From a virus, in IMG/VR virus record IMGVR_UViG_3300046534_001341, positions 12,846-76,845 of that record: a stretch of DNA of 64,000 nt; one strand, given 5' to 3'. Under the pieces are notes generated by a model, which was not told the DNA's origin, ran no database searches, and worked only from the letters and a program-made list of their open reading frames with translations. Shown piece by piece: positions 33,166 to 62,130 of the stretch; position 1 is the stretch's first letter, and every line of letters starts with the position of its first letter. Made by a program: the position numbers and the translations under genes.

Positions 33166-35474
33166 TTGAAACAAATATGGATATCACAAGATATTGTTAA
33201 TAGTACTATCACAGCAGGTATCGAAAGCCGTAAGGGTAAGATCGTCAGGGAGAAGGTGTTCCCTGACACCACCCCAAAACAGATAGTCGATGAATGGGCC
33301 AACAAGGAAATCGACATGATGGAGTTACTAATGCTGGAAAACCAAAGTGACACCTGACCCAACTGAGTTCTGGAGGGATATTACATTGAAATCAGCAGAA
33401 GGATACACCTGGGGATGGGAGAAGCAGCGTAGAAACTACGAGGCCACCATCCACTTCGATGGCTTTCAAGTCATAACCAAGAACTTCCCTATAGGTACTG
33501 AGCCAGATGTAATGGCTGCATGGGCCAAAGGGGAGATCCAAGTACGTAAACTCAAAGACCTTATCGCGCCTCCGGCACGTTCCAACCCGTAATTTAACCT
33601 AAATAACTGAGTAACAAATGATCCAAATTAATGAAGTATTCTCATGTGAACGCGACAAATACCAATGGTTGCTTCACCAAAAGAAACCTAAGGGTAAACA
33701 CCCAATCACAGGTGAGTTATCCACAAAAGAAAGCACCTCTGTCACATACCACTCAAACCCTGAGCAGATCATGAATGTGGTGATAAATCGCAGCTTAGGT
33801 AAATGTGAGTCACTTGTAGAGATGCGTGACATGCTCGTAGAGAGCCGTGAGATGGTCTCTAAGGCATGTGCGGCTATAAGTAAAGCCAATACATAGGTGA
33901 GGTATAAATATGGCCAGATACTGGGTTAAATTCAAACGTATCAAGAAGACTAATCGAGTGATGGCAAGCTTGGTTATGCCCACTAATGCAGGGCCAAAAG
34001 TCATGGCCCAGAAAAGCTTCCATGCTTACCAAACCTCTTATGGGACTATTGACCCTAACGTCCAGAAATGGGCAAGTCCCTTAGTGAACATGTATCGGCT
34101 GCTATCTCCACATGGGTGAGCTAAGTGAGATCTACCCTAGGGTACACAGAGCAATTGCAGCACCTTGGGAACCGAAGTACACGAGAGGGTTCGCTTGGGT
34201 AATACCTCCTCACACCAATCTTAGTGAGGTGAAAGTAATCATCCGAGTCAACTCAAAACAACAACGAGAAGAGACATTCAACGCTACAGACATAAAAGCT
34301 ATAGCGAAGTGGATTAACTCACAGACCAAAATCTTAAGGTTAGTCATGCCGGGGGTGTCTAGTGACAGGAGATAACACACAACCTGATAAGATAGTTGGG
34401 CGGATAAGATTACATACCCAACCAATTAATGGATTCTACTGGTCTATGTTCCACGAGCACCCAGATGGTGTGTACGTAATGGCTTCTTACTCAGACCCAA
34501 TTGTAGTTGTAATACAGCTTTACGACAATACTAAGACATTCCCTGCCTCTACACCATGTAGTGACATTGAGGGTTGGGTACTAAAAGAAACCAAGAAGAT
34601 AAACCTGAAGAATTTACTTTTTACTTGTACCAAAACCAATTAATTATAAACCCAAAGGTGGCTACGGCAACCGAAACATAAAGGTATAAACCATGAATAA
34701 ATTAGCATTAGTAATAACCATTGCGGCTATGGTTGGATGCGCATCTGCACCACGTCAATTGCCTGTATTGGTAGATGGTAACAACTATCTAGCTATGGGC
34801 ACCGACTGCTCGTATGGCATGATGAGCCAAAATGTACCTAATCAGCTTGACTGCTACAACGAAGACAAAAAGTACACAGGCAATCGTAAGCCTATGACAG
34901 CCAAAGAGCTTAAGGACTTCTGGGCAATACGAGACCAGAACATCACAGACCGTCAGGTTGATCGATTGAAAACACAGCTACGTAATGGCCGAGGACGTTA
35001 ATGCTAGAGATTACGCAGGAAATTAATTACTACTGTAAAGATGTTAATGGGTACTCATGGGGGGTGACTCAGGAACACAACCGAGCCAGCCCCATCAAGG
35101 TTGAGATTCATACCAAGCCCAGTATAAAAAAGACATTCATCTCCAGCACCCCTAGAAATAGGATCGTAGATTGGATCACCCAAGAGACCGCTAAGCTCAA
35201 GCTAAAAGCCTTGATAGGCCCTAAGGCCAAAGTAGAGTTGGGAAACCCTTGGGAGGGTTTAGTGAAACTTTCAGGGCAGATGAATCAGGTTAAGACTTGC
35301 GGGAGAAGAGTAGGAGTCATCATCTTTGATAGTATAGATAACTACTACGAATCCAACGCCACCCAGTACGTATCCAGCACCAACATACCTGAGTCCAACC
35401 AAGCCGCCGCCTTTGATAAACAAACCGGTAAAAACAAATCCAAAACTAAATACAACAGCCCATACGGGCCATAG
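33166..35474 (+). repeat. Dispersed paralog family (33166, 33347, 34112, 34362, 35001) with F...T...W...E...LK.L(L/I) pattern
   Basis: e.g. VFPDTTPKQIVDEWANKE, NFPIGTEPDVMAAWAKGE, TFPASTPCSDIEGWVLKE, TFISSTPRNRIVDWITQE. Confidence 0.7.
34693..35001 (+). CDS. Lipoprotein
   Basis: MNKLALVITIAAMVGC signal peptide/lipobox. Confidence 0.7.
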   Translation: MNKLALVITIAAMVGCASAPRQLPVLVDGNNYLAMGTDCSYGMMSQNVPNQLDCYNEDKKYTGNRKPMTAKELKDFWAIRDQNITDRQVDRLKTQLRNGRGR

Positions 35475-39549: not shown

Positions 39550-39793
39550 GCCAAAGGAGGCAATATGAACGAATTAGATCTTATGAATTTACTGTGGGTA
39601 GTGTGGTTTATTTTATGCACCATCCTATCCTTGGGCTTAGCTATTTATACTAAGTGCGGGGGTGACGCACTGTTATTGATTTTAATGGCTGGTTTCTTTG
39701 GGCCGTTTATATGGGTGCTAATAGGTTTGGCCACTCTCATATTATTGATGGCGTTTTTAGGGGAGCAACTCCTTAAATTCCTAAGGAGGGGGC

Positions 39794-42032
39794 ATGACCA
39801 ATAAGGCAGTATTAGACGAAGATGAGTGCATCGTGTGCACGCACAATAAACATGCAAAAGGCATAATATGGAGGTTGAGGGTGAACAACATTATGACAGA
39901 TAAGCCTGTTGAAGGTGTAAGAAGAGAATTCGTATATTGCAGTTATTGTGATGCGGGCAAAGAACTAGCCAAACAGGAGCTACTACGTGAGCTACTTATC
40001 AAAAAATAACCCTAGAAAGATCTGCCCAGTATGCAAGGATACAGGTAAGACCTGGAAAAACCTACCTAGCGGTGTGCTAGATAAAAGTCCTAGAGGGGTT
40101 ACATACTGCTGGTGCCCTGTAGGTGAGAAAATGGAAAAAAAGAAAGAACTCCGTGACCTGCTTATGGGAGTTAAATCATGACAGAAGGGTGTAAGGCGTG
40201 TGGTTTTGGGTTGCTACCGAAAGAGTATAAAAAATTTGAAGAGCTTCAGCACGAGCAGGGGTCGACCATCCCAATGCAGTATTGTTTTTGTGCTAATGGA
40301 CAGAGACTAGCCAAAGAGGGTCGGCTACGTAATCTACTAACAGGAGAAAAATCGAATCAATATACGGTACCTGACGACGTAGATTACAAAGATGCCGAGG
40401 ATAAGGTAAGGGATTGGTTGGACTTAGGGGTTATATAGTGGGTTACTTAGGTAGGAAATATAACTATAAAGAGCAGTGCAGGACATGCGGGGGCAAGGGT
40501 AGATACCGTGAACGTAGAGCCCCTGATCCTAATGACCCCCATAGGGGTCGTAACCCAACTCAACTATGCCATTGCCCTGCAGGTGAACAAAAGGCTCGTG
40601 ATGAGGCTTGGGATCGGATACAGAATGATAGTTAGACATGTTGAATGCAGGGCCTGTACTAAAGATGCTTGGGACTTACCCAGATGTGTCATAAACCGTA
40701 CAGCACCTGACGGGTCGTTTAGACGAGCCAGTTCTTTTTGCCTGTGTGCGGTAGGTAGGCACCTACTTCAGGTTTACTCACTCAAACAATTATTGAAAGG
40801 AAAGAGGATATGAATGACCTAATACTGTGGGCAGTAGTGACGGCAGTGATGTCAGCGCCTGTAATACTACTCATGAAAATATATGAGTGGAAAGCTTGCG
40901 TGCTCTTTGGGCACCACCCCAGTGAGTGGACGTGGGCGCAGGATGGGTATAACTCCCCTGTGCCTAATGAAGAACGGATCTTGTTCAGCCAGATGCACGG
41001 GCATTGTCGCCACTGCAAAGTGGAGGTACGTACGTTTAGTGAGCAGCATAGACTTACAGCCTATTACACCAAAGAGCAGTGTGCCCAGTACGGGTATGAA
41101 TTCGTTGATAAGAAAGAATACGAACTCAAGAAACTGCTTCTAGGTAAACGTAACGACGATGACCTATTCACTAGAAGTAACCAGATAAATTCAGGCATGC
41201 CTATGTTGGGCACAACAGGAAGGGTGATCAAAGTCGGCTTCCCTAGGAAGCTTATATGAAACAAACAACCAAAAAGTGTCCCAAGTGCGGCAACACTCAT
41301 CTGATCTTACTACAATCCCAGAACCTCAAGGTCTGTATGAACCATAAACCTAAAGCAGTCCTAATTCCTTGGTTCTTGGATAAAGGACAAAGGCCTTTAC
41401 TATGAGAAAAGCTGTCACGTTTAACCCACACTGGGTGGGTGAGGAGCCTGCTTGGGACATCCGTTTATTAAATGGGGATCACCACCGCAGCGTTACTAAA
41501 ACTACTATTTTAGCTGTAAGCACTAGAAGACATGGCACCAGTGTATTGGAGTGCGATGTTCAAGATTACGGCACACACCACTTAAAAATAGCAGCGCAGA
41601 AATGAGCAAGTGCGGTATGTGCTCTCATGATGCTGTACATACCGCGACAGGTATATTACCTCCCCTGCATGATTGGGGTACATTTACCTTTTGTCGTTGG
41701 TGTGTGAAGGGCGCCCAACTCAAAAAAGAACAGGCACTTAGGCAACTACTTAGAGGAGACCCTCCATGTGCAAAACCAGAGATATAAGTAAACCTGAAGA
41801 ATGCGTAATGTGCTCAGAGGGTTGTGACCCAGCCGCCACAGGCAGAAGACCCCACAAAAAGTTCAGTACTGAATTCTGCGTTTGGTGTGATCTAGGTATA
41901 CAGTTGGAAAAGGAACATAACCTCAAGAAATTACTTCTCAATGATAAGAAACCCCGAACAATTGCCGATCTTATACGCAAACAAATGAATGCAAAAGGGG
42001 CGGCCTCCGGCCGCTTTGTTCCCAAAAATTAA
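39794..42032 (+). repeat. Array of small zinc-finger genes (CxxC...Cx(x)CxxG) mostly ending in L[KR]xLL
   Basis: ORFs at 39794, 39987, 40178, ~40438, 40625, 41602, 41766 share the Cys pattern; 40810 and 41256-41405 are also Cys-rich. Confidence 0.8.
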
Positions 42033-44920: not shown

Positions 44921-45904
44921 ATGTCTACAGTATTCGTAGAATCCGTACAGGCAAGTATCTGTGCAGTGACAGGTAAGCGTATCGACACATTAGTTTGTGA
45001 GTATCCGCGTGCCATTCACGCCCAGTTACTTACTCACGGTGTGTTTAGTAAAAACAGTTCATCATCTCGTGCTGTACCAATTGCTTCGGCAATTGCTCAG
45101 ATACGAAAAAGCCCAGCTAAGCCGATATTTACGGCTAAGCAAACAGGTATGCAAGGCGAGCGCATTACAGATACTGGGCGTTTAACTAGTATCAATATAG
45201 CGCACAATTTATGTATGGAATTCGCAATAACCACAGCAAATTGGATGGATGCCAATGGCGTCCATAAACAAAATGCTGCCCGTTACCTTGAAACATTCCA
45301 AAATATTCGCATCGTGTTGACTTCAACAGAATGGGAAAACTGGGATTGGTTACGTATCGATGCCGCTGCTCAACCTGAAATTCAGGAATTGGCTATTGCC
45401 ATGAAAGCTGCACGCGATGCTGCTGAACCAATGAAGTTGGATGCTGGTGAATACCACGTTCCTTTCGTTGAGCGTAATCGTAATGTTGCTGGCAAGCTGG
45501 AGTACTTCACCAAAGAAGAAGTAAAAGTAGGGGGTGCTGTATTAGCGGATATCTTCAACCAAGTCGATCTGAAGACTGCCATTGATATTTCGATGTCATG
45601 CTGTGCACAGGTTTCTTACCGTAAGCTTGATAACTCAGCAGAAAAAGCTGAGGACATTATCCCCAAATTATTTGGTGGTAAGAAAATTCATGCAAGCCCT
45701 GCGGAACACCAAGCAACCCCAATCGATGCCAAGTTCCACGGTAAAGCACCAAAATTACCCTTACAGGTAATCATGGCCAGCCTTCCGGCTGGTGTAAATG
45801 CAATAGGTATTGATCTGCAATTCCGTTCGGGTAACTTCACGAACTGGATACAGCAGCGTCAAATTATCGAAGGTCATGACGCGGCGTTAATGCCGAAGGT
45901 TTAA
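44921..45904 (+). CDS. thyX: FAD-dependent thymidylate synthase
   Basis: YPRAIHAQLLTHGVFSKNSSSSRAVP, HKQNAARYLE, AQPEI, HASPAEHQA. Confidence 0.85.
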   Translation: MSTVFVESVQASICAVTGKRIDTLVCEYPRAIHAQLLTHGVFSKNSSSSRAVPIASAIAQIRKSPAKPIFTAKQTGMQGERITDTGRLTSINIAHNLCMEFAITTANWMDANGVHKQNAARYLETFQNIRIVLTSTEWENWDWLRIDAAAQPEIQELAIAMKAARDAAEPMKLDAGEYHVPFVERNRNVAGKLEYFTKEEVKVGGAVLADIFNQVDLKTAIDISMSCCAQVSYRKLDNSAEKAEDIIPKLFGGKKIHASPAEHQATPIDAKFHGKAPKLPLQVIMASLPAGVNAIGIDLQFRSGNFTNWIQQRQIIEGHDAALMPKV

Positions 45905-47151: not shown

Positions 47152-47814
47152 GTGGCTGAACCATTATTTTATTTACGTAGTCGTCACGGCGACACAGGCA
47201 ACAACGTCATGTTCCATGCAAAGATGGGGAGTGGTTACACCACTAATTTGGATGACCTACACCTGTTCACAATTGCTGAGGCACAAAAACAATTAGGTTA
47301 TAGCATCCGTTCTCTACCCTTACTAGCAGACGAAGTAGATAAGTTATCTATTAAAGCTGTGGACATGCAGAACCTAGACCATGAAAAGAATAACGAACAC
47401 AAAAAGAATTCACCTGATGTATTTAATATACAGTTAGGTGGGCATTACAATGGTAACGACATCGCATTCATAACCGGCAGTGGTGTGACTTATGACTACA
47501 GTAAGGCAGAGACCTTTACAGTAGATGCAGCTCAGAAATATTTACTGGCTCACCAAGGGGATAGCCTTTTCATCTGGAACCAAGCCTATTTAGATAGCAT
47601 CGCCCGTCGTACTTTTCAATCCCACAACATAAACACCCGCAGCATGACCACCAAACCAGGTATCGTGTATAAAAAACCACGCAAAAAACGCCCCACCACT
47701 GGCAAGACAAGAATTAACTGTCCTGACTGTGGACGCATTCATTGGCAGTACAACCCTTACGATTTTGAGGGCTGTGCCCATATAAGTTGTAAGGGTTGGC
47801 GTTCAAGCTATTAA
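47152..47814 (+). CDS. Hypothetical protein with internal duplication and C-terminal zinc finger
   Basis: GNN...GYTTNL and GND...TYDYSKA units; CPDCG...C. Confidence 0.7.
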   Translation: MAEPLFYLRSRHGDTGNNVMFHAKMGSGYTTNLDDLHLFTIAEAQKQLGYSIRSLPLLADEVDKLSIKAVDMQNLDHEKNNEHKKNSPDVFNIQLGGHYNGNDIAFITGSGVTYDYSKAETFTVDAAQKYLLAHQGDSLFIWNQAYLDSIARRTFQSHNINTRSMTTKPGIVYKKPRKKRPTTGKTRINCPDCGRIHWQYNPYDFEGCAHISCKGWRSSY

Positions 47815-49603: not shown

Positions 49604-49827
49604 TGGGGTAAGTATGTCAGAAGTAGAACTGTTAAAAGAAGTAGAAGATGCCCACTTACGCATCGAAGGCTTGAAAGAAAGAATTATGAACCTAGAGCAT
49701 TACATAGGTTTACGTTCTCATTCATTTGATGGCTACCGCCGTCAGTACGATTTCCATCAGATAAAGAAGGATATGGTATATCGTAACCGTCCCCAGTCTT
49801 TATTTGAAAAAAGAAAGGCTAAACAAG

Positions 49828-52461
49828 ATGAAGCACGTCCTTTTCAAAGAGGCGGATAGTTACCCAATAGCAATATTGGTTAAGGATTCCGCTCTACAAA
49901 AACCCAAGCTTGAGAATCATTACGTCAAGCCTTTGATGGCAATGGGTATTCCTGAACAGGACATGATTGCTTTCAGTCTGGATTATGCAGGCAAGAAAAA
50001 ACCTACCGTAGCTATCTGCAGAAAGTACTTACAGACGCTTATGCCTGCGCTAGAAAGCTTACAAACGAAGTTGCTATACGTTGCTGACGCTAATTACTTT
50101 AAATTGCTCACAGGGCTTAAGAAAGCGGATGCGTATTATGGCTACAAGAAGCCGTGTGTCATTGAAGGTTATGAACACATGGAAATAGTACTAGGTACCA
50201 ATTTTGGTATGTTGTTTTTCAAACCTGAAATGCAGCAGAAGCTGGATATGTCCCTGAATGTGGTGAGTACTGTCTATGACGGTACCTACCAAGAACTGGG
50301 GGTGGATATAATCCACTCTGAGTACTACCCAGACAATGTTTGGGACATCAAGGGGTCATTGGCCTTACTTCACCAGTTCCCTGAGCTGACGGTGGATATA
50401 GAGGCCTTCAGCCTTGAGTTCCACAAGGCAGGTATCGGCAGTATTTCATTCGCCCACGATGAACATAACGGGATTGCATTCTGCTGTGATTATGAAGGCG
50501 AGGGTTACGATGCCCAAGGTGAACCATACGTAAAAGGTGATGGTTCATACGGTAAGCAGATAGATAACATTGAGGTGAAGAAACTCCTGCGTGAATTCTT
50601 TGAAGAATACGAAGGCAAGTTGACTTACCAAAATGGTAACTACGACATCAAAGTTTTGATCTATGAATTGTTCATGGATAATTTATTGGATCAGGAAGGC
50701 CTACTTGAAGGCCTGGAAGTAATGACCAAGAGTATCGACGACACAAAGTTGATTACATACTTGGCCACAAACTCAACCTCTGGAAATAGTCTCGGCCTCA
50801 AGGGCAATGCTCACGAGTACGCAGGTAACTACGCCGAGGAAGAGATCAAGGATATTCGCCGAATACCTGAGAAGAACCTACTCCGGTATAACCTAGTGGA
50901 TTGCTTATCTACTTGGTTTGTGAAAAAGAAAAATTGGCCGATCATGGTAGCTGATAACCAGTTGGAAATTTACAACACTATCAAAATACCGAGCGTGAAA
51001 GTAATACTACAGGTTGAGTTGACTGGTATGTGCTTAAACATGGACAACGTGATTACAGCCAGTGCTGAATTAAACAAGATCAAAGACACACACTTGGATG
51101 CTATTACTAATTCTACTGTGGCTCAAAAATTCCTGAAGCTAATTCGACAGGAGGAGTTCATTAAACAGAACCTCCTGTGGAAAAAGAAGACGGCACCACT
51201 TGAGTATTTTGACTATGTTGAATTCAATCCAAACTCAGACCCACAAGTAAGGCATTTGCTTTATGACTGGTTAAAGTTTGAACCAATTGATTTCACTAAA
51301 GGTAAGCGGCCAGCTACTGGAGCCAAGACTCTTGAGAAATTGATACATACAGCTAAGTGCCCGGAAGATGTAGAACTATTAGAGGCCTTGATTGGGCTCG
51401 GTGAGGTCTCCATAATCTTAAACACTTTCATAGCTGCTATGCTCGATAAGAGTGTTATGAAAGACGATGGTCACTATTACCTCCACGGTAGTTTTAATAT
51501 CGGTGGAACAGTGAGTGGTCGGTTATCAAGCTCTAACCCTAACCTTCAAAATATTCCTAGTAGTTCAAAGTATGCGAAGCTAATCAAAGATTGCTTCTGT
51601 GCTCCACCAGGCTGGTTGATGGTAGGTGCGGATTTTAATTCTCTTGAGGATTATGTATCAGCCCTTACCACCAAAGATCCGAACAAGCTGAAAGTTTATA
51701 CTGACGGTTACGACGGTCACGCATTACGTGCTTACAAGTACTGGCCTGAAAAGTTCCCTGACATTGTTGATACCGTTGAAAGTATTAACTCGATTAAGAA
51801 ATTGTATGGCGCCATTCGCGGTGACAGCAAACCAATCACATTCATGCTCACGTATGGTGGTACCTACCACGGCTTAATTCAGAACCTTGGTTTTGAAAAG
51901 CAGTATGCGATTGATGTTGAAAGCGCCTATCACGTTATGTATGCAGTTTCTGACCAGTGGGTTGCTGATAAGTTGAAACAGGCCACGATAGACGGTTACG
52001 TCACTGCGGCCTTCGGCCTTCGTGTCCGTACGCCTATCTTAGCCCAGACGATTTTAGGTAATAAAGCCACACCGTATGAAGCAAGTGCGGAAGGTAGAAC
52101 TGCTGGTAATGCTTTGGGTCAGTCCTACTGCATGCTCAATAACCGTGCCGGTATCGAATTCCAGCAACGAAGCCTCGCTTCTGATTATGCAAAGGATATT
52201 AGACCCAGCGCCCACATCCATGATGCCCAGTATTTTCTCATAAGGGATAATCTAGGTTGCGTGAAGTGGGTAAACGACAATTTAGTTGAGTGTATGCAGT
52301 GGCAGGAACTCCCAGAGCTGAAGCATGACACCGTGAAATTAGGTGGGGAATTAGACGTGTTCTACCCCACTTGGCGCCATGACATAACCATCCCGAATAC
52401 CCAGTCAATTGCCCAGATAAAAACTATCTGCGACAAGGAGATGAAGAAGCGTAATGCGTAA
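49828..52461 (+). CDS. Family A DNA polymerase (N4 gp39 family)
   Basis: VDIEAF (ExoI), GRLSSSNPNLQN, GADFNSLE, KPITFMLTYG, HIHDAQY; no intein/intron seen. Confidence 0.95.
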   Translation: MKHVLFKEADSYPIAILVKDSALQKPKLENHYVKPLMAMGIPEQDMIAFSLDYAGKKKPTVAICRKYLQTLMPALESLQTKLLYVADANYFKLLTGLKKADAYYGYKKPCVIEGYEHMEIVLGTNFGMLFFKPEMQQKLDMSLNVVSTVYDGTYQELGVDIIHSEYYPDNVWDIKGSLALLHQFPELTVDIEAFSLEFHKAGIGSISFAHDEHNGIAFCCDYEGEGYDAQGEPYVKGDGSYGKQIDNIEVKKLLREFFEEYEGKLTYQNGNYDIKVLIYELFMDNLLDQEGLLEGLEVMTKSIDDTKLITYLATNSTSGNSLGLKGNAHEYAGNYAEEEIKDIRRIPEKNLLRYNLVDCLSTWFVKKKNWPIMVADNQLEIYNTIKIPSVKVILQVELTGMCLNMDNVITASAELNKIKDTHLDAITNSTVAQKFLKLIRQEEFIKQNLLWKKKTAPLEYFDYVEFNPNSDPQVRHLLYDWLKFEPIDFTKGKRPATGAKTLEKLIHTAKCPEDVELLEALIGLGEVSIILNTFIAAMLDKSVMKDDGHYYLHGSFNIGGTVSGRLSSSNPNLQNIPSSSKYAKLIKDCFCAPPGWLMVGADFNSLEDYVSALTTKDPNKLKVYTDGYDGHALRAYKYWPEKFPDIVDTVESINSIKKLYGAIRGDSKPITFMLTYGGTYHGLIQNLGFEKQYAIDVESAYHVMYAVSDQWVADKLKQATIDGYVTAAFGLRVRTPILAQTILGNKATPYEASAEGRTAGNALGQSYCMLNNRAGIEFQQRSLASDYAKDIRPSAHIHDAQYFLIRDNLGCVKWVNDNLVECMQWQELPELKHDTVKLGGELDVFYPTWRHDITIPNTQSIAQIKTICDKEMKKRNA

Positions 52462-54837: not shown

Positions 54838-55572
54838 TTGAAAACAATTGAAATTAACGAATCGGCTCGCTCGATGAAACTGAACATGGACAACCGTGTG
54901 AAGTTTAAAAACATCATTCTGAATGATGTCTTGTTTGCTCGATCAAATGCAGTACGTGAAGGTATGGTTGTTATCCAAGGTAAGTTCATTGATCTTACTT
55001 ATGGCAGCACACCCCAAAAACGTGCCGCAGTAAAAAAGCGCATGATTAAAATGGAAGAAGACACTAAGGCAATTAATGCTTTGGGTGTGTCTTGTACATC
55101 AAGCACGGGTTCACACACCAGCTCATTCAATTTGAATTTAGCAGGTAGTGCGATCACCTTGTACTTCTGGGAAGAGCCCCTTATGACTCATACCGTTGGA
55201 TTCAATAATGAATTCTTGAAGTATTCTCGAAATGAAACATCTAATGGTCGTGCAGCATTACCTGTTGGATCTAGTAAACTTACTCTGGTTCATGGTGATC
55301 CATTGATCCAGAAGTTCTGGGATCTGAAGTATGAAGCTGAAGCAATTGAGCTAGCCTCTGAAGAGCTGTCTGCAGTTTTGTCTACCGTTTTTGGTAGAGC
55401 AAAAACTCTTGGTGCTGCTATTGATAAGTGGCCTGAGCTAAGTCAGTATGTGCCCGCAATTATGTCCTCTTGTAAAGAGATCGTAGTGCCAGTAGGTACA
55501 TTGAACAAACGCTTGGACGTATTACGTTCAGGTAAAGGTAAAGTAGCTGATGCCATGAAGGCTGAAGCTTAA
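54838..55572 (+). CDS. Nmad5-like protein
   Basis: helical protein with TLGAAIDKWPEL..YVP motif. Confidence 0.5.
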   Translation: MKTIEINESARSMKLNMDNRVKFKNIILNDVLFARSNAVREGMVVIQGKFIDLTYGSTPQKRAAVKKRMIKMEEDTKAINALGVSCTSSTGSHTSSFNLNLAGSAITLYFWEEPLMTHTVGFNNEFLKYSRNETSNGRAALPVGSSKLTLVHGDPLIQKFWDLKYEAEAIELASEELSAVLSTVFGRAKTLGAAIDKWPELSQYVPAIMSSCKEIVVPVGTLNKRLDVLRSGKGKVADAMKAEA

Positions 55573-55574
55573 CC

Positions 55575-56045
55575 GAGCACAAACTCTCCTGTAGCAATAC
55601 GGGAGTGCAGCGTGGGTCGTGGCAGACGTTAAAATGTCCGGTGTGTATCTGAGATTGATGCCGAAAACGCACACTTAAAACTCCACCTAGTGAGGTACGT
55701 GCATCCGTTGGTAGCGTACTACTAGGATTAATGTGCAGCGGTGTAACGGGGCGACGCTAACTTGCCCCCTGTGAGTTCGAGACTCGCTTAATCCGAGGGC
55801 CTACTCTGTGGCCTTAGCTTTACAGCTTAAAGACCCTTTGTGTCAGGTGTATGGTCATGGAGACGATAACATCCCGTCGTTAAGGTCGACGTAAAAAGCC
55901 TGCTCAGTAATGAGGATAACAACCGGACTCATGGAGGCCGTGACACTACGTGCAGTTTATGGATCACGTTAAAAGCCACACTCAGTACACGAGGGAACCA
56001 TTCCCAATGACATCGAGTATAACAACCGCTTGCATCGTACTGCTC
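55575..56045 (+). ncRNA. Large pseudoknot-rich structured RNA (~470 nt)
   Basis: no credible CDS; GCAA tetraloop hairpin; at least five stem/A-rich linker/loop-pairing units; GAGCA...TGCTC ends. Confidence 0.6.
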
Positions 56046-56078
56046 AGAATTCTCAACCGGCAACCTATAGGTGGGCTT

Positions 56079-56354
56079 ATGTACGTAACACCAGACAACA
56101 AGAAGCCAGTTATTATTACGGGTACCGGTAAGTACCAAACCCGTGCGGGTGATATAGTAACCATAGACACTGTGCACGATCACAGTGACGATTACTCAGT
56201 AACCCGCTACAACTGCAAAGGCACCATGGCCGTCAAGCGCAAGGGCAAAAAGGTTAAGCATGTCTGGAATATTTGGCACGAAAGTGGGGACTTCGGTGGT
56301 GACATCGGAGAACACCCAGAAGACATCGTTAAAAAATTAGATCAATCCACGTAA
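56079..56354 (+). CDS. Hypothetical protein inside ncRNA island
   Basis: GKYQTRAGDIVTI...WHESG...HPEDIV. Confidence 0.65.
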   Translation: MYVTPDNKKPVIITGTGKYQTRAGDIVTIDTVHDHSDDYSVTRYNCKGTMAVKRKGKKVKHVWNIWHESGDFGGDIGEHPEDIVKKLDQST

Positions 56355-56398
56355 CGATAACCCAAAGAAACAGGCTATAAATGAATAGTCGTAGGAGT

Positions 56399-56564
56399 AA
56401 GGCAGTCTAATCACCCAAGTAAGGGCGCGGCATAACCTCTAGGGAGGTGCAGGGTTGCCTTGGGCTAGTGGTATATTTAGAAAGAATTCAGACATCGAGG
56501 GGTTTTTCCCTTGCTCTGTCGAATAGGCTTGGTGGACCTTTTGCCACCCGTGACTTCGGTCACG
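56399..56564 (+). ncRNA. Series of stem-loops preceding the first tRNA-like RNA
   Basis: AAGGCAGTCT/GGGTTGCCTT stem, GGTGG/CCACC, CGTGAC-TTCG-GTCACG. Confidence 0.45.
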
Positions 56565-56569
56565 TTAAT

Positions 56570-56678
56570 GGGAGTGTAGCTCAGTTGGTAGAGCAACTTG
56601 CGATTCGTGAGGTTAGGACCCTAACCCATCATCGTAAAGCAAGAATGCCGGGCGGTTCAAGTCCCCCCACTTCCACCA
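56570..56678 (+). tRNA. tRNA-like RNA 1: Ala-type acceptor, anticodon loop replaced by ~37-nt insert
   Basis: GGGAGTG/CACTTCC-A-CCA; normal D arm (GCTC AGTTGGTA GAGC) and TTCAAGT T loop; CTTGC/GCAAG stem encloses an extra hairpin. Confidence 0.8.
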
Positions 56679-56682
56679 TTAT

Positions 56683-56848
56683 GAACTTAGTTATGTGAAA
56701 GCTGTTAGTGATCCCAAGGGCGGGCAAACCCTGGGAGAGTGAAAGCAATTAGCAGTAACGCCTATGCAGGACTTGAGATGATCCCTTTACCTTCGGGGAG
56801 GATAGCTCTCAAGTTACGGTCTTCGGTCACACGGAGTGAGTTCTTCCA
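56683..56848 (+). ncRNA. Multi-branched structured RNA ending in TCCA
   Basis: GAACTTA/TGAGTTC closing stem; GCTGTTAGT/ATTAGCAGT; GACTTGAGA/TCTCAAGTT; cUUCGg loop. Confidence 0.55.
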
Positions 56849-56849
56849 T

Positions 56850-57028
56850 TTTTGTAATGGTATTAGTAGCAAAGACATGAGTGCCTTGTGTTAACAATAG
56901 GAACGTGAGCAAACATAAACCACGCCCTTCTCTGTTGATGGCAAGTAACACCGAGCGGTCGGGGATGGGCTGCCAATAGAACTTAAAATTCTACAAGGCG
57001 CGCGGAATCCTGGAGTATCATTACAAAA
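56850..57028 (+). ncRNA. ~180-nt structured RNA with 15-bp closing stem, internal bubble and multi-way junction
   Basis: TTTTGTAATGGTATT/AGTATCATTACAAAA; GTGCCTTGT/ACAAGGCGC. Confidence 0.6.
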
Positions 57029-57035
57029 GTTTTAT

Positions 57036-57112
57036 GGGCCGGTCTGTTGACGGTAAAACTGCCTCCATTTTGGGAGGAGACGGGTAATTACGTAATCCCG
57101 TTCGGTCCACCA
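57036..57112 (+). tRNA. tRNA-like RNA 2: Ala-type acceptor, non-canonical T and anticodon arms
   Basis: GGGCCGG/TCGGTCC-A-CCA; CCTCC/GGAGG with 6-nt loop; ACGGG-TAATTACGTAAT-CCCGT. Confidence 0.75.
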
Positions 57113-57118
57113 CTTTAT

Positions 57119-57209
57119 GGGGTGTTAGCTTACGTCTAATGCGCTGAGTTGACTGGGTTTAGGCCTACTGCTCAGAACGGGTAACTACGCAGTCCCGTAC
57201 ACTCCACCA
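57119..57209 (+). tRNA. tRNA-like RNA 3: Ala-type acceptor, non-canonical T arm, extended anticodon arm
   Basis: GGGGTGT/ACACTCC-A-CCA; CTGAGT/GCTCAG; ACGGG-TAACTACGCAGT-CCCGT. Confidence 0.75.
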
Positions 57210-57213
57210 ATTA

Positions 57214-57326
57214 ATGTTTATTGGTTAGCTGCTCGCCTGATTTCAGCGGGCATACCTTGATCGGATATTGAAAGGAGGGTTCGACTCCCCCACAAGGTTC
57301 TGAAAGGGTAGCTATCCAATACACAT
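57214..57326 (+). ncRNA. Long-stem RNA containing a canonical T-arm module (Y-RNA/YrlA-like architecture?)
   Basis: ATGTTTATTGGTTAGCTGC/GTAGCTATCCAATACACAT stem; ACCTTG/CAAGGT; GGG-TTCGACT-CCC. Confidence 0.55.
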
Positions 57327-57420
57327 TTCGTACATTAAAATAACGGCAAATGAATGAGTAGAGTTAACTCTACTTTAGAAACTAAGGGTCTAATTTAACT
57401 GACTAAACCAAGGTGGAAAA

Positions 57421-58284
57421 ATGATAGATTTAAACTGGCCTGAAGGGGCCGAAGCTAAGATTGATGATACTTTCTCAAAATGGGTAGATGGTGCTCAATA
57501 CGATCTCATAGGTGGGAATTGGACTGAAAACCTAAATAACTGGTCACTTGATAAATTTAAATTAAATGGTTCTTTTACAATAATAGAGCGCCAAATTGAC
57601 ACAGTTGAAATAAATTGGCCTGAAGGGGCCGAGGCTAAGGTTAATGATATTTTCACAAAATGGATAGATGGGGTTGAATACTATCTAAAGGAGGGCGAGT
57701 GGGTTCAAAGTTGGAATAGCCGGTCACTTGATAAATACAAATCAAATAATGATTTTAAAGTAATAGAGCGACCAATTGAGACAGTTGAAATTAATTGGCC
57801 TGAAGGGTCCGAGGCTAAGATTGATGAGGATTTCGCAAAATGGGTTGATGGTGTTGAATACAACCTAGATCATGGTGAATGGGTTAAAAACCAAAACAGT
57901 TGGTCGCTTGTTAAATTCAAATCATCTGATGATTTTAAAGTCATAGAGCGCCCAATTGAAACAGTTGAAATAAAAGAGGTAAGTAAGCCAATTGACACTC
58001 CATATCTGCCAGAAGTGGGGGAGTGGTGTGATTATCGAACAGTGCAGAAAGGTGAATATAGAAAGGCATTCTTTATTGGTCATAACGAAGTTGGTGAGCA
58101 TGTATTAAAAGACGTTCACGGTGATTTTATTGAAGATAGTTGCAACTTCCGGCCAATCAAGACAGAGTGTGAGAAGTTTATTGAAAAAGGAATTGAGATA
58201 AACCGAAGTTTAACGATAGGGGCTACAGAAACAGAAATGTTTGTTGCGCTGTTTGAAGCCGGATTCAAAGCACCAGAATATTAA
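57421..58284 (+). CDS. Protein with three tandem 60-aa repeats (180-bp DNA period)
   Basis: NWPEG(A/S)EAK...KW.DG..Y...W...SL.K.K....F..IER.I.TVEI x3. Confidence 0.85.
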   Translation: MIDLNWPEGAEAKIDDTFSKWVDGAQYDLIGGNWTENLNNWSLDKFKLNGSFTIIERQIDTVEINWPEGAEAKVNDIFTKWIDGVEYYLKEGEWVQSWNSRSLDKYKSNNDFKVIERPIETVEINWPEGSEAKIDEDFAKWVDGVEYNLDHGEWVKNQNSWSLVKFKSSDDFKVIERPIETVEIKEVSKPIDTPYLPEVGEWCDYRTVQKGEYRKAFFIGHNEVGEHVLKDVHGDFIEDSCNFRPIKTECEKFIEKGIEINRSLTIGATETEMFVALFEAGFKAPEY

Positions 58285-58378: not shown

Positions 58379-58607
58379 TTTAGTATATTTATCGAGTGGC
58401 ACAGGGCACTGATTGTAGGGATTTTTTGATGGGGTATGTGCCCTTAGGAGAATCCTGTTCAGTAAATTGTATGACGATCAGAACTAAGGCGGGGTTACCA
58501 TCCCGGTGTAGCGGTGGGGTAGAGTAGGGGACACCCAAAATACCACCTAGCTTCATTATCTGGCGGCAATTTGGCAACGCCCCGTGTCACGCGATAAATA
58601 TATTAAA
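58379..58607 (+). ncRNA. ~230-nt element closed by a ~24-bp inverted repeat
   Basis: TTTAGTATATTTATCG-A-GTGGCAC ... GTGTCAC-G-CGATAAATATATTAAA with G-U pairs on + strand; internal stems. Confidence 0.55.
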
Positions 58608-58625
58608 CTCACAGAGGAGCCAACT

Positions 58626-59630
58626 ATGGCAAATCCCCAATACAAAAATCTCAAGAATACATCCTTGAGTGTGGCTGTGTGGTTAGCCCACGACAGTTAC
58701 GACCACAACCCAGACCCAAACACCATATCTGTTACCACCCTGATTAAACCAATCAAACAGATTGTGTTAGGTATGCGGGCCAAGAAAGCTGGGGTAGTGG
58801 AATCACGAGAAATCAGTGAGAACACTGCCTCCAGTATGGGTACAGCATTCCATGACTCAATCGAAGATGCTTGGGTAAATAATTACAAGACGGCCTTGGC
58901 CAAGCTTGGTTATCCCCAGAAGATCATCGACCGTATTGTGGTTAACCCTACCGTGATCAAAGATGGAGACATCCCTGTTTATTTGGAGCGTCGCTCATCA
59001 ATGAAGATTGGTGGTTTAACTGTATCAGGTAAATTCGATTTCGTCGGTGAGGGTCGTGTAGAGGACTTTAAGTCCACAAGCACGTATTCATACACGTCAG
59101 GCACAAAAGACGGTGCATTCATCCTACAGGGCTCTCTGTATCGATTATTGAACCAAGACATCATCACTCGTGATGATATGGCTATCCAGTACATTTTTAC
59201 TGATTGGAAACCTACCTTGGCGCTTAGCGATAAAGGGTACCCACAAAGCCGTGTGCTTGAGCATAAGCTTAATCTCATGGATGTAGATGAAACACATCGT
59301 TGGGCAGAACAAAAAGTACACCAGATCATTACTCTTAAGGATGTGACGGAAGATAAAATGCCTGACTGTACTCAAGAAGACCTGTGGCAGTCAGTCCCTA
59401 AGTACAAGTACTACAAAAACCAAGCCAATGCTACAAAGCCAGGTGGGCGTAGTACTAAGAATTTCGATTCTATTATCGAAGCCAACATAAAATTGGCTGA
59501 TGATAATTACGTAGGTGTGGTTGTTACAGTACCGGGTGAAGTCCGTGCCTGTAAGTACTGCGATGCATTCAATGCTTGTAAGCAAAAAGATGGCTTGATT
59601 GCATCTGGTTCATTGAAGGTGGGTAAGTAA
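58626..59630 (+). CDS. PD-(D/E)XK nuclease (N4 gp42 family)
   Basis: AVWLAHDSYD, GTAFHDSIE, SGKFDF...VEDFKSTS, CKYC. Confidence 0.85.
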   Translation: MANPQYKNLKNTSLSVAVWLAHDSYDHNPDPNTISVTTLIKPIKQIVLGMRAKKAGVVESREISENTASSMGTAFHDSIEDAWVNNYKTALAKLGYPQKIIDRIVVNPTVIKDGDIPVYLERRSSMKIGGLTVSGKFDFVGEGRVEDFKSTSTYSYTSGTKDGAFILQGSLYRLLNQDIITRDDMAIQYIFTDWKPTLALSDKGYPQSRVLEHKLNLMDVDETHRWAEQKVHQIITLKDVTEDKMPDCTQEDLWQSVPKYKYYKNQANATKPGGRSTKNFDSIIEANIKLADDNYVGVVVTVPGEVRACKYCDAFNACKQKDGLIASGSLKVGK

Positions 59631-59960
59631 ATGTCACTATCATTTCTTATAACTGCCTTCAGAGTGTTAGGGACTATTCGTACTGTCACCACTGTTCTGG
59701 AAATGGTTAATGGACCCCTCACCGTATCTTCACCGAATGCAGGCACTCATTTACCAATTTTGGGGATGCACATCCAATACATCCAGAACCAGTATGAAGA
59801 TGCTGTGAACTGGAACAATGCCCACCCAGCTAATTTGAGTATTTCAAATAGCTCATTAGTGGCGGGTCTCAATCGAGAACTTGGTCTTAATCAATCACTG
59901 GCTGCCTACCAACAAGTTTGGGCTAGACCGAAGGGAGGGATCATAGATGAAAGATCTTAG
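59631..59960 (+). CDS. Hypothetical protein
   Basis: 109 aa, tightly packed between nuclease and primase. Confidence 0.6.
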   Translation: MSLSFLITAFRVLGTIRTVTTVLEMVNGPLTVSSPNAGTHLPILGMHIQYIQNQYEDAVNWNNAHPANLSISNSSLVAGLNRELGLNQSLAAYQQVWARPKGGIIDERS

Positions 59961-62130
59961 TACTGTTGCATACGATACAGCCTCAGAAAAGCTGGTCGAA
60001 ATTCTTTGTAAAAAAACCAACAACGATGATCCTCTGTTCTTCAGAATCATGGTTGCTTACTATTTTGCCAAGGTAGCTTCAATGATGCGCGTAAATGTGG
60101 CAACACATGACCGTGGTGTTATCCCTGTAAACCTCTACGCCATCAACCTAGCGACATCAGGTTTTGGTAAGGGTCGGTCCACTAACCTTGTGGAGGAGCA
60201 GGTTATCAACCAGTTCCGTGAGCGATTTATCAGTGAGACATTCTTATCCGTGGCTGAAAAGTCATGCCGTAAGTTGGCTTTAACCCGTGCTGCCATAAAA
60301 GGTTCTGACCCAGATGATGAAGTGGAAATTGTAGCCAAGGAATTCCGAGACCTTGGTTTTCTACTATTCTCATTCGATGGTGGTACCCCAGCAGCAGTGA
60401 AGCAATTGCGACACAAATTGCTGATGGCTAAAGCCGGATCCATGAATATGGAAATCGATGAGATAGGTACCAACCTATTAGGTAACCAAGACATTCTAGG
60501 CGTGTTCTTAGAGCTTTTCGACGTTGGTAAGGTGAAAGCCAAGCTGATCAAGAATACCGCTGAGAACGTACGTAACGAAGAGATTGATGGCCGTACACCA
60601 GCCAACATGATGATGTTTGGTACACCTTCAAAATTATTTGATGGTGGTAAGACGGAAGAAGCTCTTTGGGGCTTCATCGATACTGGTTACGGTCGTCGAT
60701 GCTTCTACGGTTACACCAAGGGCGGGCCACAAGCCAATGCTATGGATGCGACCACTCGTTACACCCAAGGTATCGATACTGGTTCTGAGAAGTTCATAAC
60801 CGATTTGTCGGACTCCATGGGTAAGCTTGCTGATGAAGTGAATTTTGGTAAAAAAATCACCATGTCTAAAGCTGTCAGCATATTAAGCATTGAATACCAA
60901 ATTCAGTGTGAAGCCGCTGCTCAGGATATGGGTGAGCACGAGGACATGCGTAAGGCTGAAATAATTCACCGTTATTTCAAAGCGTTAAAGCTAGCCGGTA
61001 CGTATGCCTTCATTGCAGGAAGCCATGAAATCACTGAAGACCATTTGATGGCCGCCATTAAATTGGCTGAAGATTCTGGTGAGGCATTCAAGCAATTACT
61101 TACTCGTGATCGTACCTACGTGAAACTGGCCAAGTACATTGCTGAGATTGGACGTGAAGTCACCCACGCCGACCTCACAGAGGACTTACCGTTCTACAAG
61201 GGCAGTGAATCAGTTAAGCGTGATTTACTCTCGTTGGCCATAGCATACGGCCACAAGAACAACATCATTATCAAGCGTGCGTTTGAGAGTGGTATTGAAT
61301 TTTTGAAAGGTGAATCCCTTAAGGAGACTGACCTGAATAAAATGGTAGTAGCTTACAGTGATCACTACGCTGAGCGTTACCAACCTGAGGAAGTTCCATT
61401 TGCCCAGTTAAGTAAATTAACTCAAGCGGCTGGAATGCACTGGGTTAATCATCACATGGTGGGGAACCATCGATTGGAATCTAATTCGATACCGGGCTTC
61501 AACATGGTAGTCATAGATGTTGATAAGAATGTATCGATCGATACGGCTAAATTGCTCTTGAAAGATTACACCTATCACATGTATACGACCAAGCGTCACC
61601 AGACCACTGAAGTGGAAGATGATGGCACCTTGGTTGAGCACGGGGATCGCTTCCGTATCATTATGCCATTGAGCCATAAATTGAAAATGGGTCCTGATGA
61701 ATTCACTGAGTTCATGAAGAACATTTTCGAGTGGTTGCCTTTCGATTCTGATGAGCAGACCTCACAGCGTGCACGTAAGTGGATGTCATGTAAGGGAACA
61801 GTTCACGATAACAAAGGTAAGCTTCTTGACGCTTTGGACTTCATACCGAAGACCACGAAAAGTGACGAGCGCCGTAAGGCAATAGATGGGCAACAATCTC
61901 TGTCAAATATGGAGCGATGGTTCTGCCAGAACACGGGTATAGGTAATCGAAGTAATCAATTAGTCAAGTACGCCTTGATGTTAGTGGACTCCGGACGTGA
62001 CATTATTGATGTACAGAGTGCGGTACTAGAACTGAATGCTAAGTTACAGGACAAAATGAAGGAAGCCGAAATACTGACTACCATCATGAAGACTGCAGCG
62101 AAAGCCTTCAACAAACGTGACACTGAATAG
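59947..62130 (+). CDS. DNA primase (N4 gp43 family)
   Basis: SGFGKGRST, IDEIG, VIDVD, YTTKRH, GNRSNQL. Confidence 0.9.
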   Translation: MKDLSTVAYDTASEKLVEILCKKTNNDDPLFFRIMVAYYFAKVASMMRVNVATHDRGVIPVNLYAINLATSGFGKGRSTNLVEEQVINQFRERFISETFLSVAEKSCRKLALTRAAIKGSDPDDEVEIVAKEFRDLGFLLFSFDGGTPAAVKQLRHKLLMAKAGSMNMEIDEIGTNLLGNQDILGVFLELFDVGKVKAKLIKNTAENVRNEEIDGRTPANMMMFGTPSKLFDGGKTEEALWGFIDTGYGRRCFYGYTKGGPQANAMDATTRYTQGIDTGSEKFITDLSDSMGKLADEVNFGKKITMSKAVSILSIEYQIQCEAAAQDMGEHEDMRKAEIIHRYFKALKLAGTYAFIAGSHEITEDHLMAAIKLAEDSGEAFKQLLTRDRTYVKLAKYIAEIGREVTHADLTEDLPFYKGSESVKRDLLSLAIAYGHKNNIIIKRAFESGIEFLKGESLKETDLNKMVVAYSDHYAERYQPEEVPFAQLSKLTQAAGMHWVNHHMVGNHRLESNSIPGFNMVVIDVDKNVSIDTAKLLLKDYTYHMYTTKRHQTTEVEDDGTLVEHGDRFRIIMPLSHKLKMGPDEFTEFMKNIFEWLPFDSDEQTSQRARKWMSCKGTVHDNKGKLLDALDFIPKTTKSDERRKAIDGQQSLSNMERWFCQNTGIGNRSNQLVKYALMLVDSGRDIIDVQSAVLELNAKLQDKMKEAEILTTIMKTAAKAFNKRDTE

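What the first reader, a model, noticed from the sequence alone, without database searches (positions are those of the whole stretch)
55575..56045. About 470-nt non-coding region built from repeated H-type pseudoknot units
Seen: recurring stem + A-rich linker + loop-complement units: GTC-gtGGCA-GAC-gttaaaa-TGTC (55616), GTGTGT..GAG..GCACAC-ttaaaa-CTC (55641), GTGAGT-TCGag-ACTCGC-ttaatc-CGA (55771), GTC-atGGA-GAC-gataaca-TCC (55854), CGTCG-ttaAGGT-CGACG-taaaaa-GCCT (55875), CGTGA..TGGa-TCACG-ttaaaa-gCCA (55939). ATAACAACC occurs twice, and there is long-range TGCAGCGGT/ACCGCTTGCA pairing. Established: large tRNA-adjacent phage RNAs (GOLLD, ROOL), tmRNA pk1 and type III antitoxin RNAs (ToxI, mimicked by phage phiTE) use such pseudoknots. 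Inference: a new large ncRNA or an array of RNA decoys. Individual second stems are short (3-4 bp), so the support comes from their repetition.
Basis: partly seen in the sequence, partly recalled or inferred. Interest (0 to 1): 0.8.

Follow-up and report, generated by a model that had tools for sequence, protein, structure and literature searches.

The report
Patchwork of tRNA-derived RNA modules
The 507-base gap in this sea-ice N4-like phage is not one large pseudoknot RNA but a patchwork of short, related stem-loop modules that descend from tRNA-like genes, including one complete tRNA-shaped cloverleaf; whether they still do anything is untested.

Summary
The non-coding stretch is real (55573-56078, + strand, GC 0.50 against 0.44 for the genome) and matches no Rfam family.

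- **Second stems:** under a loose definition they occur at chance level. Under strict H-type geometry the region has 5 units against 0.9 in shuffles, but one coding window equals it.
- **Long-range pairings and whole-region fold:** both are at chance.
- **What is beyond chance:** a strand-specific motif, ACG-N-TAA-M flanked by GG...CC (4 strict copies, 0.09 expected), and internal paralogy. A~B, B~W and X~Y each gave 0 of 2000 shuffles.
- **Block B (55725-55795):** it folds as a cloverleaf with a perfect 7-bp acceptor stem and a canonical T arm, but has G33 and no CCA. A model built from B alone retrieves a genuine tRNA-Ser in another phage.
- **The "A-rich linkers":** these are mostly copies of B's anticodon-like loop and of its AU-rich 3' acceptor strand.

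Four units can also form small pseudoknots, which is plausible but unproven. No relatives' DNA or RNA data could be reached, so function rests on inference. I read the region as the remodelled first part of a 1.85-kb island of tRNA-mimic genes. Another agent of this scan already described that island's alanine-type mimics.

The parts
55573..56078 (+). Non-coding gap between the Nmad5-like gene and the 91-aa ORF. It is the first part of a ~1.85-kb RNA island that continues at 56355-57420.
   Evidence: ORF map and family scans. GC 0.502 against 0.444 for the genome. No sigma-70 promoter or intrinsic terminator on the + strand inside it.
55586..55605 (+). U0: an 8-bp hairpin with a GCAA loop, just after the upstream stop codon.
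   Evidence: MFE -11.1 kcal/mol; z -4.8 on + against -2.8 on -.
55601..55687 (+). Module A, a diverged copy of B. It comprises hairpin GGCA-loop-TGTC (55621-55638, loop holds ACGTTAAAA), hairpin GTGTGT...GCACAC (55641-55674), tail TTAAAA, and a possible 5-bp closing helix GGAGT/ACTCC followed by A-CC.
   Evidence: Local alignment 55605-55654 against 55733-55782: score 16, 0 of 2000 shuffles.
55686..55726 (+). Long imperfect hairpin CCTAGT...ACTAGG. Its loop resembles a tRNA D loop (TCCGTTGGTAG).
   Evidence: MFE z -1.6 on + against -0.5 on -. Repeat D14 is at chance level on its own.
55725..55795 (+). Module B, a tRNA-shaped cloverleaf. Acceptor GGATTAA/TTAATCC, D arm TGCA-GCGG-TGTA, 7-bp stem with loop CGCTAAC (CUA in anticodon position, G at 33), T arm GTGAG-TTCGAGA-CTCGC, discriminator G, no CCA.
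   Evidence: The MFE is a cloverleaf, z -2.45 on + against -0.78 on -. ARAGORN finds it only at a relaxed threshold. Rfam gives only tRNA-Sec at 12.6 bits, E 4. Model R1 built from B retrieves a tRNA-Ser(GCT) gene in L045/L046 at 23 bits, E 0.003.
55796..55836 (+). Module C: two adjacent hairpins (AGGGCC...GGCCTT; AGCT-TTAC-AGCT) followed by TAAAGACCC.
   Evidence: Read from the sequence. No significant similarity to the other blocks.
55841..55928 (+). Module X. It comprises unit u3 (TGTC...GGA-GACG-ATAACA-TCC, 55841-55874), unit u5 (CGTCG-TTA-AGGT-CGACG-TAAAAA-GCCT, 55875-55901), hairpin CTCA-GTAA-TGAG (55903-55914), then ATAACAACC.
   Evidence: X against Y: score 18.5, 0 of 2000 shuffles. 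B against X: 57 of 2000. A against X: 48 of 2000. Strict pseudoknot scan.
55929..56034 (+). Module Y, a duplicate of X with insertions. It comprises unit u6 (CGTGA...TGG-A-TCACG-TTAAAAG-CCA, 55939-55978), hairpins at 55981-56005, and the second ATAACAACC at 56019.
56531..56569 (+). It is a partial copy of B's 3' half (GGTGG...CCACC; CGTGAC-TTCG-GTCACG; TTAAT) and abuts the 5' end of the tRNA mimic at 56570.
   Evidence: B 55762-55792 against 56541-56569: score 14, 0 of 2000 shuffles.
56079..56354 (+). 91-aa ORF (phrog_4781, function unknown) that splits the RNA island.

Best explanation
The gap is the remodelled upstream part of a former tRNA gene cluster. It is a set of short paralogous modules on the + strand, not a single large RNA.

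Shown:
- One module (B) is still a complete tRNA-shaped cloverleaf with a canonical T arm and acceptor stem. Its anticodon loop is unusable (G33, 7-bp stem).
- Modules A and W are partial copies of B.
- X and Y are duplicates of each other and are weakly linked to A and B.
- The recurring 'A-rich linker' comes from two homologous pieces: the loop of the anticodon-like hairpin (GG-stem / ACG-N-UAA-M / CC-stem) and the AU-rich 3' acceptor strand (UUAAUCC and its variants UUAAAAC, UAAAAAG, UUAAAAG).

Inferred:
- The stretch is transcribed with the flanking middle genes.
- It is cut into small stable RNAs by tRNA-processing enzymes that recognise the T arm and acceptor of B.
- The RNAs present parts of tRNA (elbow, anticodon-like loops, some stiffened by a small pseudoknot) to host tRNA-binding proteins. 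They would act with the alanine-type mimics downstream as competitors or decoys, for example against tRNA-directed defence nucleases.
For: - Paralogy: A~B, B~W and X~Y each gave 0 of 2000 shuffles (alignments).
- B folds as a cloverleaf, with a better z-score on + than on -. Its T arm carries G53, TTCGA and C61 (read). A model built from B alone finds a genuine tRNA-Ser elsewhere.
- The motif is enriched and strand-specific.
- GC is raised in the gap, as in RNA genes.
- The stems I picked on the + strand contain seven G-U pairs, which would be A-C mismatches on the - strand (read).
- All five T-arm-like stems are intact 5-6-bp helices although their sequences differ.
- In other phages the neighbouring mimic family sits inside clusters of ordinary tRNA genes, and a related N4-like phage has a YrlA-type tRNA-like module at the same locus. 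tRNA-derived RNAs are therefore usual at this position.
- Phage tRNAs that counter tRNA-targeting defences are documented (PMC10264068, PMC11464382).
Against: - There are no homologues of the gap, so there is no covariation test.
- No RNA data exist, and four DNA metagenomes show no variants here.
- A, X, Y and W do not fold as cloverleaves: R1 finds only B in the island.
- Their MFE z-scores are near 0.
- W is truncated by the next gene, which looks like decay.
- B fails Rfam's tRNA models.
- The decoy function is pure inference.
Confidence: 0.4

Rival explanations
1. Relic. The modules are decaying duplicates of tRNA-like genes with no present function, left over from gene turnover in a tRNA cluster.
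For: Only B keeps a full cloverleaf. W is cut off by the adjacent mimic. A, X and Y show no excess folding energy. Most related N4-like loci have no gap of 300 nt or more near the exonuclease gene, so the stretch is dispensable for this kind of phage.
Against: The T-arm-like stems are all intact despite different sequences. GC is raised. The motif is kept in at least 5 copies in one orientation. Lytic phages with packed genomes seldom keep 0.5 kb of junk. Near-identical copies occur in four metagenomes.
Confidence: 0.25
2. The region is an array of H-type pseudoknots with A-rich third loops that act as decoy substrates or inhibitors of an RNA-cutting toxin (type III ToxN-like or Abi), or as exonuclease blocks.
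For: Four units (55611, 55841, 55875, 55939) fit classical geometry with L2 of 0-1 nt and L3 of 6-7 nt, and 0 of 200 shuffles reach the count. Paralogue pairs differ in compensatory ways: AGG..CCT against TGG..CCA; CGTCG/CGACG against CGTGA/TCACG; a base pair added in GGCA/TGTC relative to GGA/TCC (read).
Against: Second stems are 3-4 bp. A coding window scores equally. The loose definition gives chance levels. There is no tandem repeat and no Rfam ToxI, tmRNA or preQ1 match. My rough stacking estimate puts the pseudoknots only marginally below the simple hairpins (inference, not computed with a pseudoknot program).
Confidence: 0.12
3. Cis-acting leader and punctuation. The hairpins stabilise the upstream mRNA 3' end, direct RNase P/Z/E cuts in the polycistronic middle transcript, or control translation of the 91-aa ORF.
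For: A strong hairpin lies right after the upstream stop codon. No promoter or terminator lies inside the gap. A tRNA-shaped element could serve as an RNase P site. CCACCTA (55683) complements the ribosome-binding site TAGGTGG (56068).
Against: 507 nt is long for a leader. The anti-ribosome-binding-site pairing is at chance level. Paralogous modules are not needed for this role.
Confidence: 0.12
4. DNA-level sites. The repeated ACGTTAAAA-like words bind a protein on DNA, as iterons of an origin or as promoters of the phage RNA polymerase II.
For: The words are direct repeats in one orientation. One copy lies 6 nt before the 5' end of the mimic at 56570, with a T7-like look (CACG-TTAAT-GGGAG).
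Against: The word is not enriched elsewhere in the genome: 17 matches against 17.7 expected with one mismatch allowed. Spacing is irregular. GC is raised rather than lowered. G-U pairs favour an RNA reading. Only about 9 nt are conserved.
Confidence: 0.06

Closest known systems
Phage tRNA gene clusters with non-canonical tRNA-like members (for example the clusters around the same mimic family in L045/L046; the T4 cluster with its stable species 1 and 2 RNAs, recalled from memory)
   Same: Tandem small RNA genes on one strand. Module B has a T arm and acceptor stem of tRNA class. The stretch lies next to CCA-ending tRNA mimics.
   Different: ARAGORN's default settings find no tRNA gene in the 64-kb window. 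Only one full cloverleaf is present and it cannot decode. The other modules lack acceptor and D stems.
YrlA / bacterial Y RNA tRNA-like module (Rfam RF02553; PMC4201824)
   Same: An RNA built from tRNA parts (T arm, D arm, capped acceptor-like stem) and used as a protein handle rather than in translation. A related N4-like phage has such a module at the equivalent locus.
   Different: The focal gap does not match YrlA at E <= 10. The best match in this genome is 12.1 bits at 56540-56596. There is no Ro60/TROVE gene.
Small H-type pseudoknots with an A-rich third loop (preQ1-I riboswitch aptamer, luteovirus frameshift knots, tmRNA pk1)
   Same: Units u5 and u6 have a 5-bp S1, a 3-4-bp S2 stacked directly on it, and a 6-7-nt UAAAAA-type L3, which is the same layout.
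   Different: There is no L2 pocket with the ligand-reading C. There is no Rfam match, no downstream ribosome-binding site in S2, no slippery site and no tag reading frame.
ToxI-type antitoxin RNA and the phage phiTE pseudo-ToxI
   Same: A non-coding array in a phage with A-rich single-stranded stretches and possible pseudoknots.
   Different: ToxI is a tandem array of near-identical 36-nt repeats. Here TRF finds no array, and the units differ in length, sequence and spacing (27-83 nt).

Membership tests
tRNA (Rfam RF00005, clan CL00001), for module B | 7-bp acceptor stem closing a four-way junction | tested here: met
   GGATTAA/TTAATCC, all Watson-Crick. The MFE is a cloverleaf.
tRNA (Rfam RF00005, clan CL00001), for module B | T arm with G53, T54-T55-C56-R57-A58 and C61 | tested here: met
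   GTGAG-TTCGAGA-CTCGC, read. R1 aligns it to the T arm of a tRNA-Ser gene.
tRNA (Rfam RF00005, clan CL00001), for module B | 7-nt anticodon loop with U33 on a 5-bp stem | tested here: not met
   The loop is CGCTAAC with G at position 33. The stem can extend to 7 bp.
tRNA (Rfam RF00005, clan CL00001), for module B | Score at or above the family's gathering threshold | tested here: not met
   No RF00005 match at E <= 10. tRNA-Sec scores 12.6 bits against a threshold of 47. ARAGORN's default settings find nothing.
tRNA (Rfam RF00005, clan CL00001), for module B | Processing by RNase P / CCA addition / aminoacylation | not testable with these tools
   No CCA is encoded: G73 is followed by AGG. 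No RNA data exist.
Type III antitoxin RNA (ToxI-like) | Tandem, near-identical repeats of about 34-36 nt | tested here: not met
   TRF finds no array in 55573-56078.
Type III antitoxin RNA (ToxI-like) | Partner ToxN/AbiQ-type endoribonuclease | tested here: inconclusive
   No PF13958 match in the phage, but the control genomes did not ring either. A phage mimic would not need its own toxin.
tmRNA (one-piece or permuted) | tRNA-like domain with CCA end, tag reading frame and pseudoknot ring, recognised by ARAGORN or Rfam | tested here: not met
   ARAGORN -m finds none even at a relaxed threshold. Rfam gives only a 16.7-bit permuted-tmRNA match, outside the gap at 56651-56744.
GOLLD / ROOL large phage ncRNAs | Match to the family model and a large conserved multi-domain fold | tested here: not met
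   No Rfam match. Global MFE z -0.5. Long-range helices are at chance.
preQ1-I riboswitch | H-type pseudoknot with a ligand-reading C in L2 and a match to the family model | tested here: not met
   L2 is 0-1 nt in the four units. No RF00522 match at E <= 10 in 507 nt.
YrlA (Y RNA-like) | T arm, capped acceptor-like stem and D arm inside a long terminal stem, next to a Ro60 gene | tested here: not met
   No match in the gap. The best in this genome is 12.1 bits at 56540-56596. No TROVE gene.

The most novel reading that the evidence does not exclude
The gap encodes a multi-unit RNA decoy. At least five copies of a loop ACG-N-UAA-M are held on a GG/CC stem; four could be locked by a mini-pseudoknot and one is displayed as the 'anticodon loop' of a tRNA-shaped scaffold. 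Together they would soak up a host enzyme that reads or cuts tRNA anticodon loops (the loops read CUA, UUA and AUA, one base away from tRNA-Tyr GUA), or an A-rich-site endoribonuclease toxin. This would be a new kind of phage counter-defence RNA.
Probability: 0.12. Interest if true: 0.8.

Novelty: new variant of a known kind. Interest (0 to 1): 0.4.

Why it matters
Together with the mimics downstream, this phage would carry about 1.85 kb of tRNA-derived RNA genes and no usable tRNA. That is a case of a tRNA cluster turned wholly to non-decoding uses. If the modules are made and bind host factors, they would widen the known ways in which phages use tRNA shape against tRNA-directed defences. If they are relics, they record how such clusters turn over. 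For the scan, the case shows that repeated 'pseudoknot units' found by eye can be a by-product of paralogy.

Tried and rejected
**Searches for relatives of the gap**
- blastn of the gap against 50,697 phage records found only chance hits.
- Protein-anchored scans with the Nmad5-like gene and the 91-aa ORF found none in viral contigs, metagenome contigs or genome contigs.
- The exonuclease scan gave 39 N4-like loci of at most 60% identity, without similarity to the gap.
- A two-motif DNA pattern had 0 hits in viral contigs.
- Loci that carry the neighbouring mimic family show no similarity to the gap.
- Proteins P0003 and P0004 (64% identical Nmad5; one on a 76.7-kb contig) exist.

**Sequencing runs**
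- No RNA holder was listed.
- Four DNA runs (ice and seawater) hold near-identical copies with no variant in the gap.

**Other tests**
- Earlier notes of this scan: a look-up by sequence found nothing for the gap.
- Stop-codon recoding that would give the CUA loop a job: rejected. TAG ends 20 of 85 long ORFs, and reading it through does not merge genes.
- A tag reading frame for a tmRNA-like role: the only GCA-started frame ends ...PKTHT, unlike known tags (read).
- CsrA-type GGA sponge: my hand count gives 8 GGA against about 6 expected.
- The motif cluster was not found in any other locus held.
- The MAFFT alignment of the five T-arm-like hairpins was not in structural register.
- The 91-aa ORF belongs to an uncharacterised phage family.

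Full report
**Context.** The window is bases 12846-76845 of a 76,845-base IMG/VR virus record rated complete. The gene content is that of an N4-like phage. It holds a family-A DNA polymerase (49804-52461), an Nmad5-domain protein (54838-55572), an exonuclease (58584-59630) and a primase (59947-62130). Near-identical DNA occurs in ice and seawater metagenomes of four studies. The finding lies in a 507-base gap (55573-56078). It is followed by a 91-aa ORF (56079-56354; ribosome-binding site AGGTGGG; phrog_4781) and a second gap (56355-57420). ARAGORN's default settings find no tRNA in the window. In the second gap Rfam finds one tRNA-like gene with a 38-nt insertion in its anticodon loop. Earlier notes of this scan describe that second gap as holding three CCA-ending alanine-type tRNA mimics. 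I confirmed their G3-U70 and A73 by reading.

**The observation.** All six units, both ATAACAACC copies and the two long-range complementary words are present. Their statistical weight is uneven.
- The whole region folds no better than shuffles (z -0.50 on +, -0.36 on -).
- Long-range helices are at or below chance.
- A loose definition of the unit (5-bp stem, A-rich linker, 3-bp loop complement) gives 4 units against 1.64 +/- 1.17 in shuffles, and about 14% of genome windows do as well.
- A strict H-type definition gives 5 units against 0.91 +/- 0.92, with 0 of 200 shuffles reaching it. This is the highest count in the genome, but coding window 33931-34450 ties it.

What sets the focal units apart is shared sequence. 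[ACG]CG[ACT]TAA[AC] occurs 4 times on the + strand and never on the - strand, with 0.09 expected. Five copies have the form GG...(G/C)ACG-NTAAMA...CC.

**Internal paralogy.** Local alignments with dinucleotide-shuffle controls show three significant pairs, each with 0 of 2000 shuffles reaching the score:
- A (55605-55654) with B (55733-55782)
- B (55762-55792) with W (56541-56569)
- X (55855-55915) with Y (55929-55994)

B-X and A-X are marginal (57 and 48 of 2000).

B (55725-55795) folds as a cloverleaf in the unconstrained MFE (z -2.45 on +, -0.78 on -). It has a perfect 7-bp acceptor stem, a 4-bp D stem with a GG-containing loop, a 7-bp stem capped by CGCTAAC, and a T arm with G53, TTCGA and C61. 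It lacks U33 and an encoded CCA. It scores only 12.6 bits on Rfam's tRNA-Sec model and does not match the general tRNA model at all. A covariance model built from B alone finds no second cloverleaf in the island. In 464 kb of other phage loci, however, it picks out a gene that ARAGORN calls tRNA-Ser(GCT). B is therefore tRNA-class in shape and T-arm sequence, but it is not a working decoder. The genome also shows no stop-codon recoding that would call for a CUA suppressor.

- Units 1 and 4 (55616, 55854) align with B's anticodon-like arm. Their 'second stem' (GGCA/TGTC, GGA/TCC) is the homologue of that arm's stem, and their 'linker' is the homologue of its loop.
- Unit 3 (55771) is B's T arm followed by its acceptor 3' strand, TTAATCC.
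- Units 2, 5 and 6 (55641, 55875, 55939) are T-arm-like hairpins followed by variants of that AU-rich strand (TTAAAAC, TAAAAAG, TTAAAAG). The same holds for W, which lies just before the mimic at 56570.
- The two ATAACAACC copies belong to the X/Y duplication.

The repetition that seemed to support pseudoknots is thus mostly common descent. Even so, u1, u3, u5 and u6 all place the GG strand 0-1 nt from the 3' arm of the first stem and the CC strand 6-7 A-rich bases after it. That is proper H-type geometry. The paralogue pairs also differ in compensatory ways: AGG..CCT against TGG..CCA; CGTCG/CGACG against CGTGA/TCACG; one base pair gained in u1 relative to u3. I rate the mini-pseudoknots as plausible but unproven.

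**Strand and kind of molecule.**
- GC is 0.50 in the gap against 0.44 for the genome and 0.40-0.45 in the flanking genes.
- The three best-folding elements fold better on + than on -.
- The stems I picked on the + strand hold seven G-U pairs.
- The motif is strictly one-stranded.
- There is no sigma-70 promoter or intrinsic terminator inside the gap.

All of this fits RNA made as part of the + strand middle transcript rather than DNA-level sites.

**Comparison with other phages.**
- No homologue of the gap was found anywhere.
- Most related N4-like loci have no gap of 300 nt or more near the exonuclease gene.
- L020, a complete 74.8-kb N4-like record, has a 515-nt gap there. It holds a YrlA-type tRNA-like module (35.6 bits, E 4e-6), although that phage has no Ro60 gene.
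- The mimic family next to my region lies inside clusters of ordinary tRNA genes in other phages, and directly after tRNA-Met in Alteromonas phage AD45-P1.

These facts fit an origin of the whole island from a tRNA cluster.

**Mechanism and verdict.**
- **Shown:** paralogous modules, one cloverleaf, motif enrichment, strand bias, and no known family.
- **Inferred:** co-transcription with the middle genes, processing at the tRNA-like elements, and action as tRNA-part mimics that engage host tRNA-binding proteins. Phage tRNAs that defeat tRNA-cutting defences give precedent for that arena (PMC10264068, PMC11464382). YrlA shows that tRNA parts can serve as protein handles (PMC4201824).
- **Main rival:** plain decay of duplicated genes.

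I score the finding as a moderately interesting new variant of phage tRNA-derived RNAs. Its evidential base is thin because neither relatives nor RNA data were available.

Noticed in passing
L020:606-670: A complete 74.8-kb N4-like record carries a YrlA-type tRNA-like module about 1.2 kb upstream of its exonuclease gene. The order is T arm ACATG-TTCGATT-CATGT, capped acceptor-like hairpin, then D arm GCTC-AATTGGTA-GAGC. It scores 35.6 bits (E 4e-6), below the gathering score of 69. That phage has no TROVE/Ro60 gene.
   Followed up: partly
window 57431-57974: Three tandem 180-nt repeats (78% matches) lie inside the 287-aa ORF 57421-58284. The stretch has low GC (0.36-0.38) and strong GC skew (+0.27 to +0.36). 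It may be a repeat protein, or possibly an origin-like region.
   Followed up: no
window 56570-56675: Rfam calls a tRNA (43.8 bits) with 38 nt in place of the anticodon loop. ARAGORN finds it only with the intron option, as tRNA-Tyr(GTA) with a 30-nt intron. This was already treated by another agent of this scan.
   Followed up: partly
window 56352-56365 and 56326-56334: Two further copies of the ACG-N-TAA motif lie at the end of the 91-aa ORF (TCGTTAAAA, and ACGATAACCC overlapping the stop codon). The motif therefore continues into the second RNA gap.
   Followed up: no
window 45246-45275, 40066-40092, 39761-39784, 30910-30936, 47336-47361: GC-rich hairpins with 3-nt loops are followed by T/A-AAA on the + strand. 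Examples are TGGATGCC-AAT-GGCGTCCA-TAAAC and CTAGCG-GTG-TGCTAG-ATAAAAG. They may be N4-type hairpin promoters or terminators.
   Followed up: no
L041:3170-4201 (Alteromonas phage AD45-P1): A ~1-kb non-coding stretch holds tRNA-Met, a homologue of the mimic at window 57120-57210 directly after it (with compensatory changes in two stems), and at least one further unannotated tRNA-like element at 3439-3508 (mascRNA/menRNA model, 24 bits, E 0.066).
   Followed up: partly
L046:666-3475 and L045: In these IMG/VR contigs the same mimic family sits inside a cluster of seven ordinary tRNA genes.
   Followed up: no
window 55683-55689 and 56068-56074: CCACCTA at the end of module A is a perfect complement of TAGGTGG, the ribosome-binding site of the 91-aa ORF 385 nt downstream. 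The count of such 7-bp helices is at chance level.
   Followed up: partly
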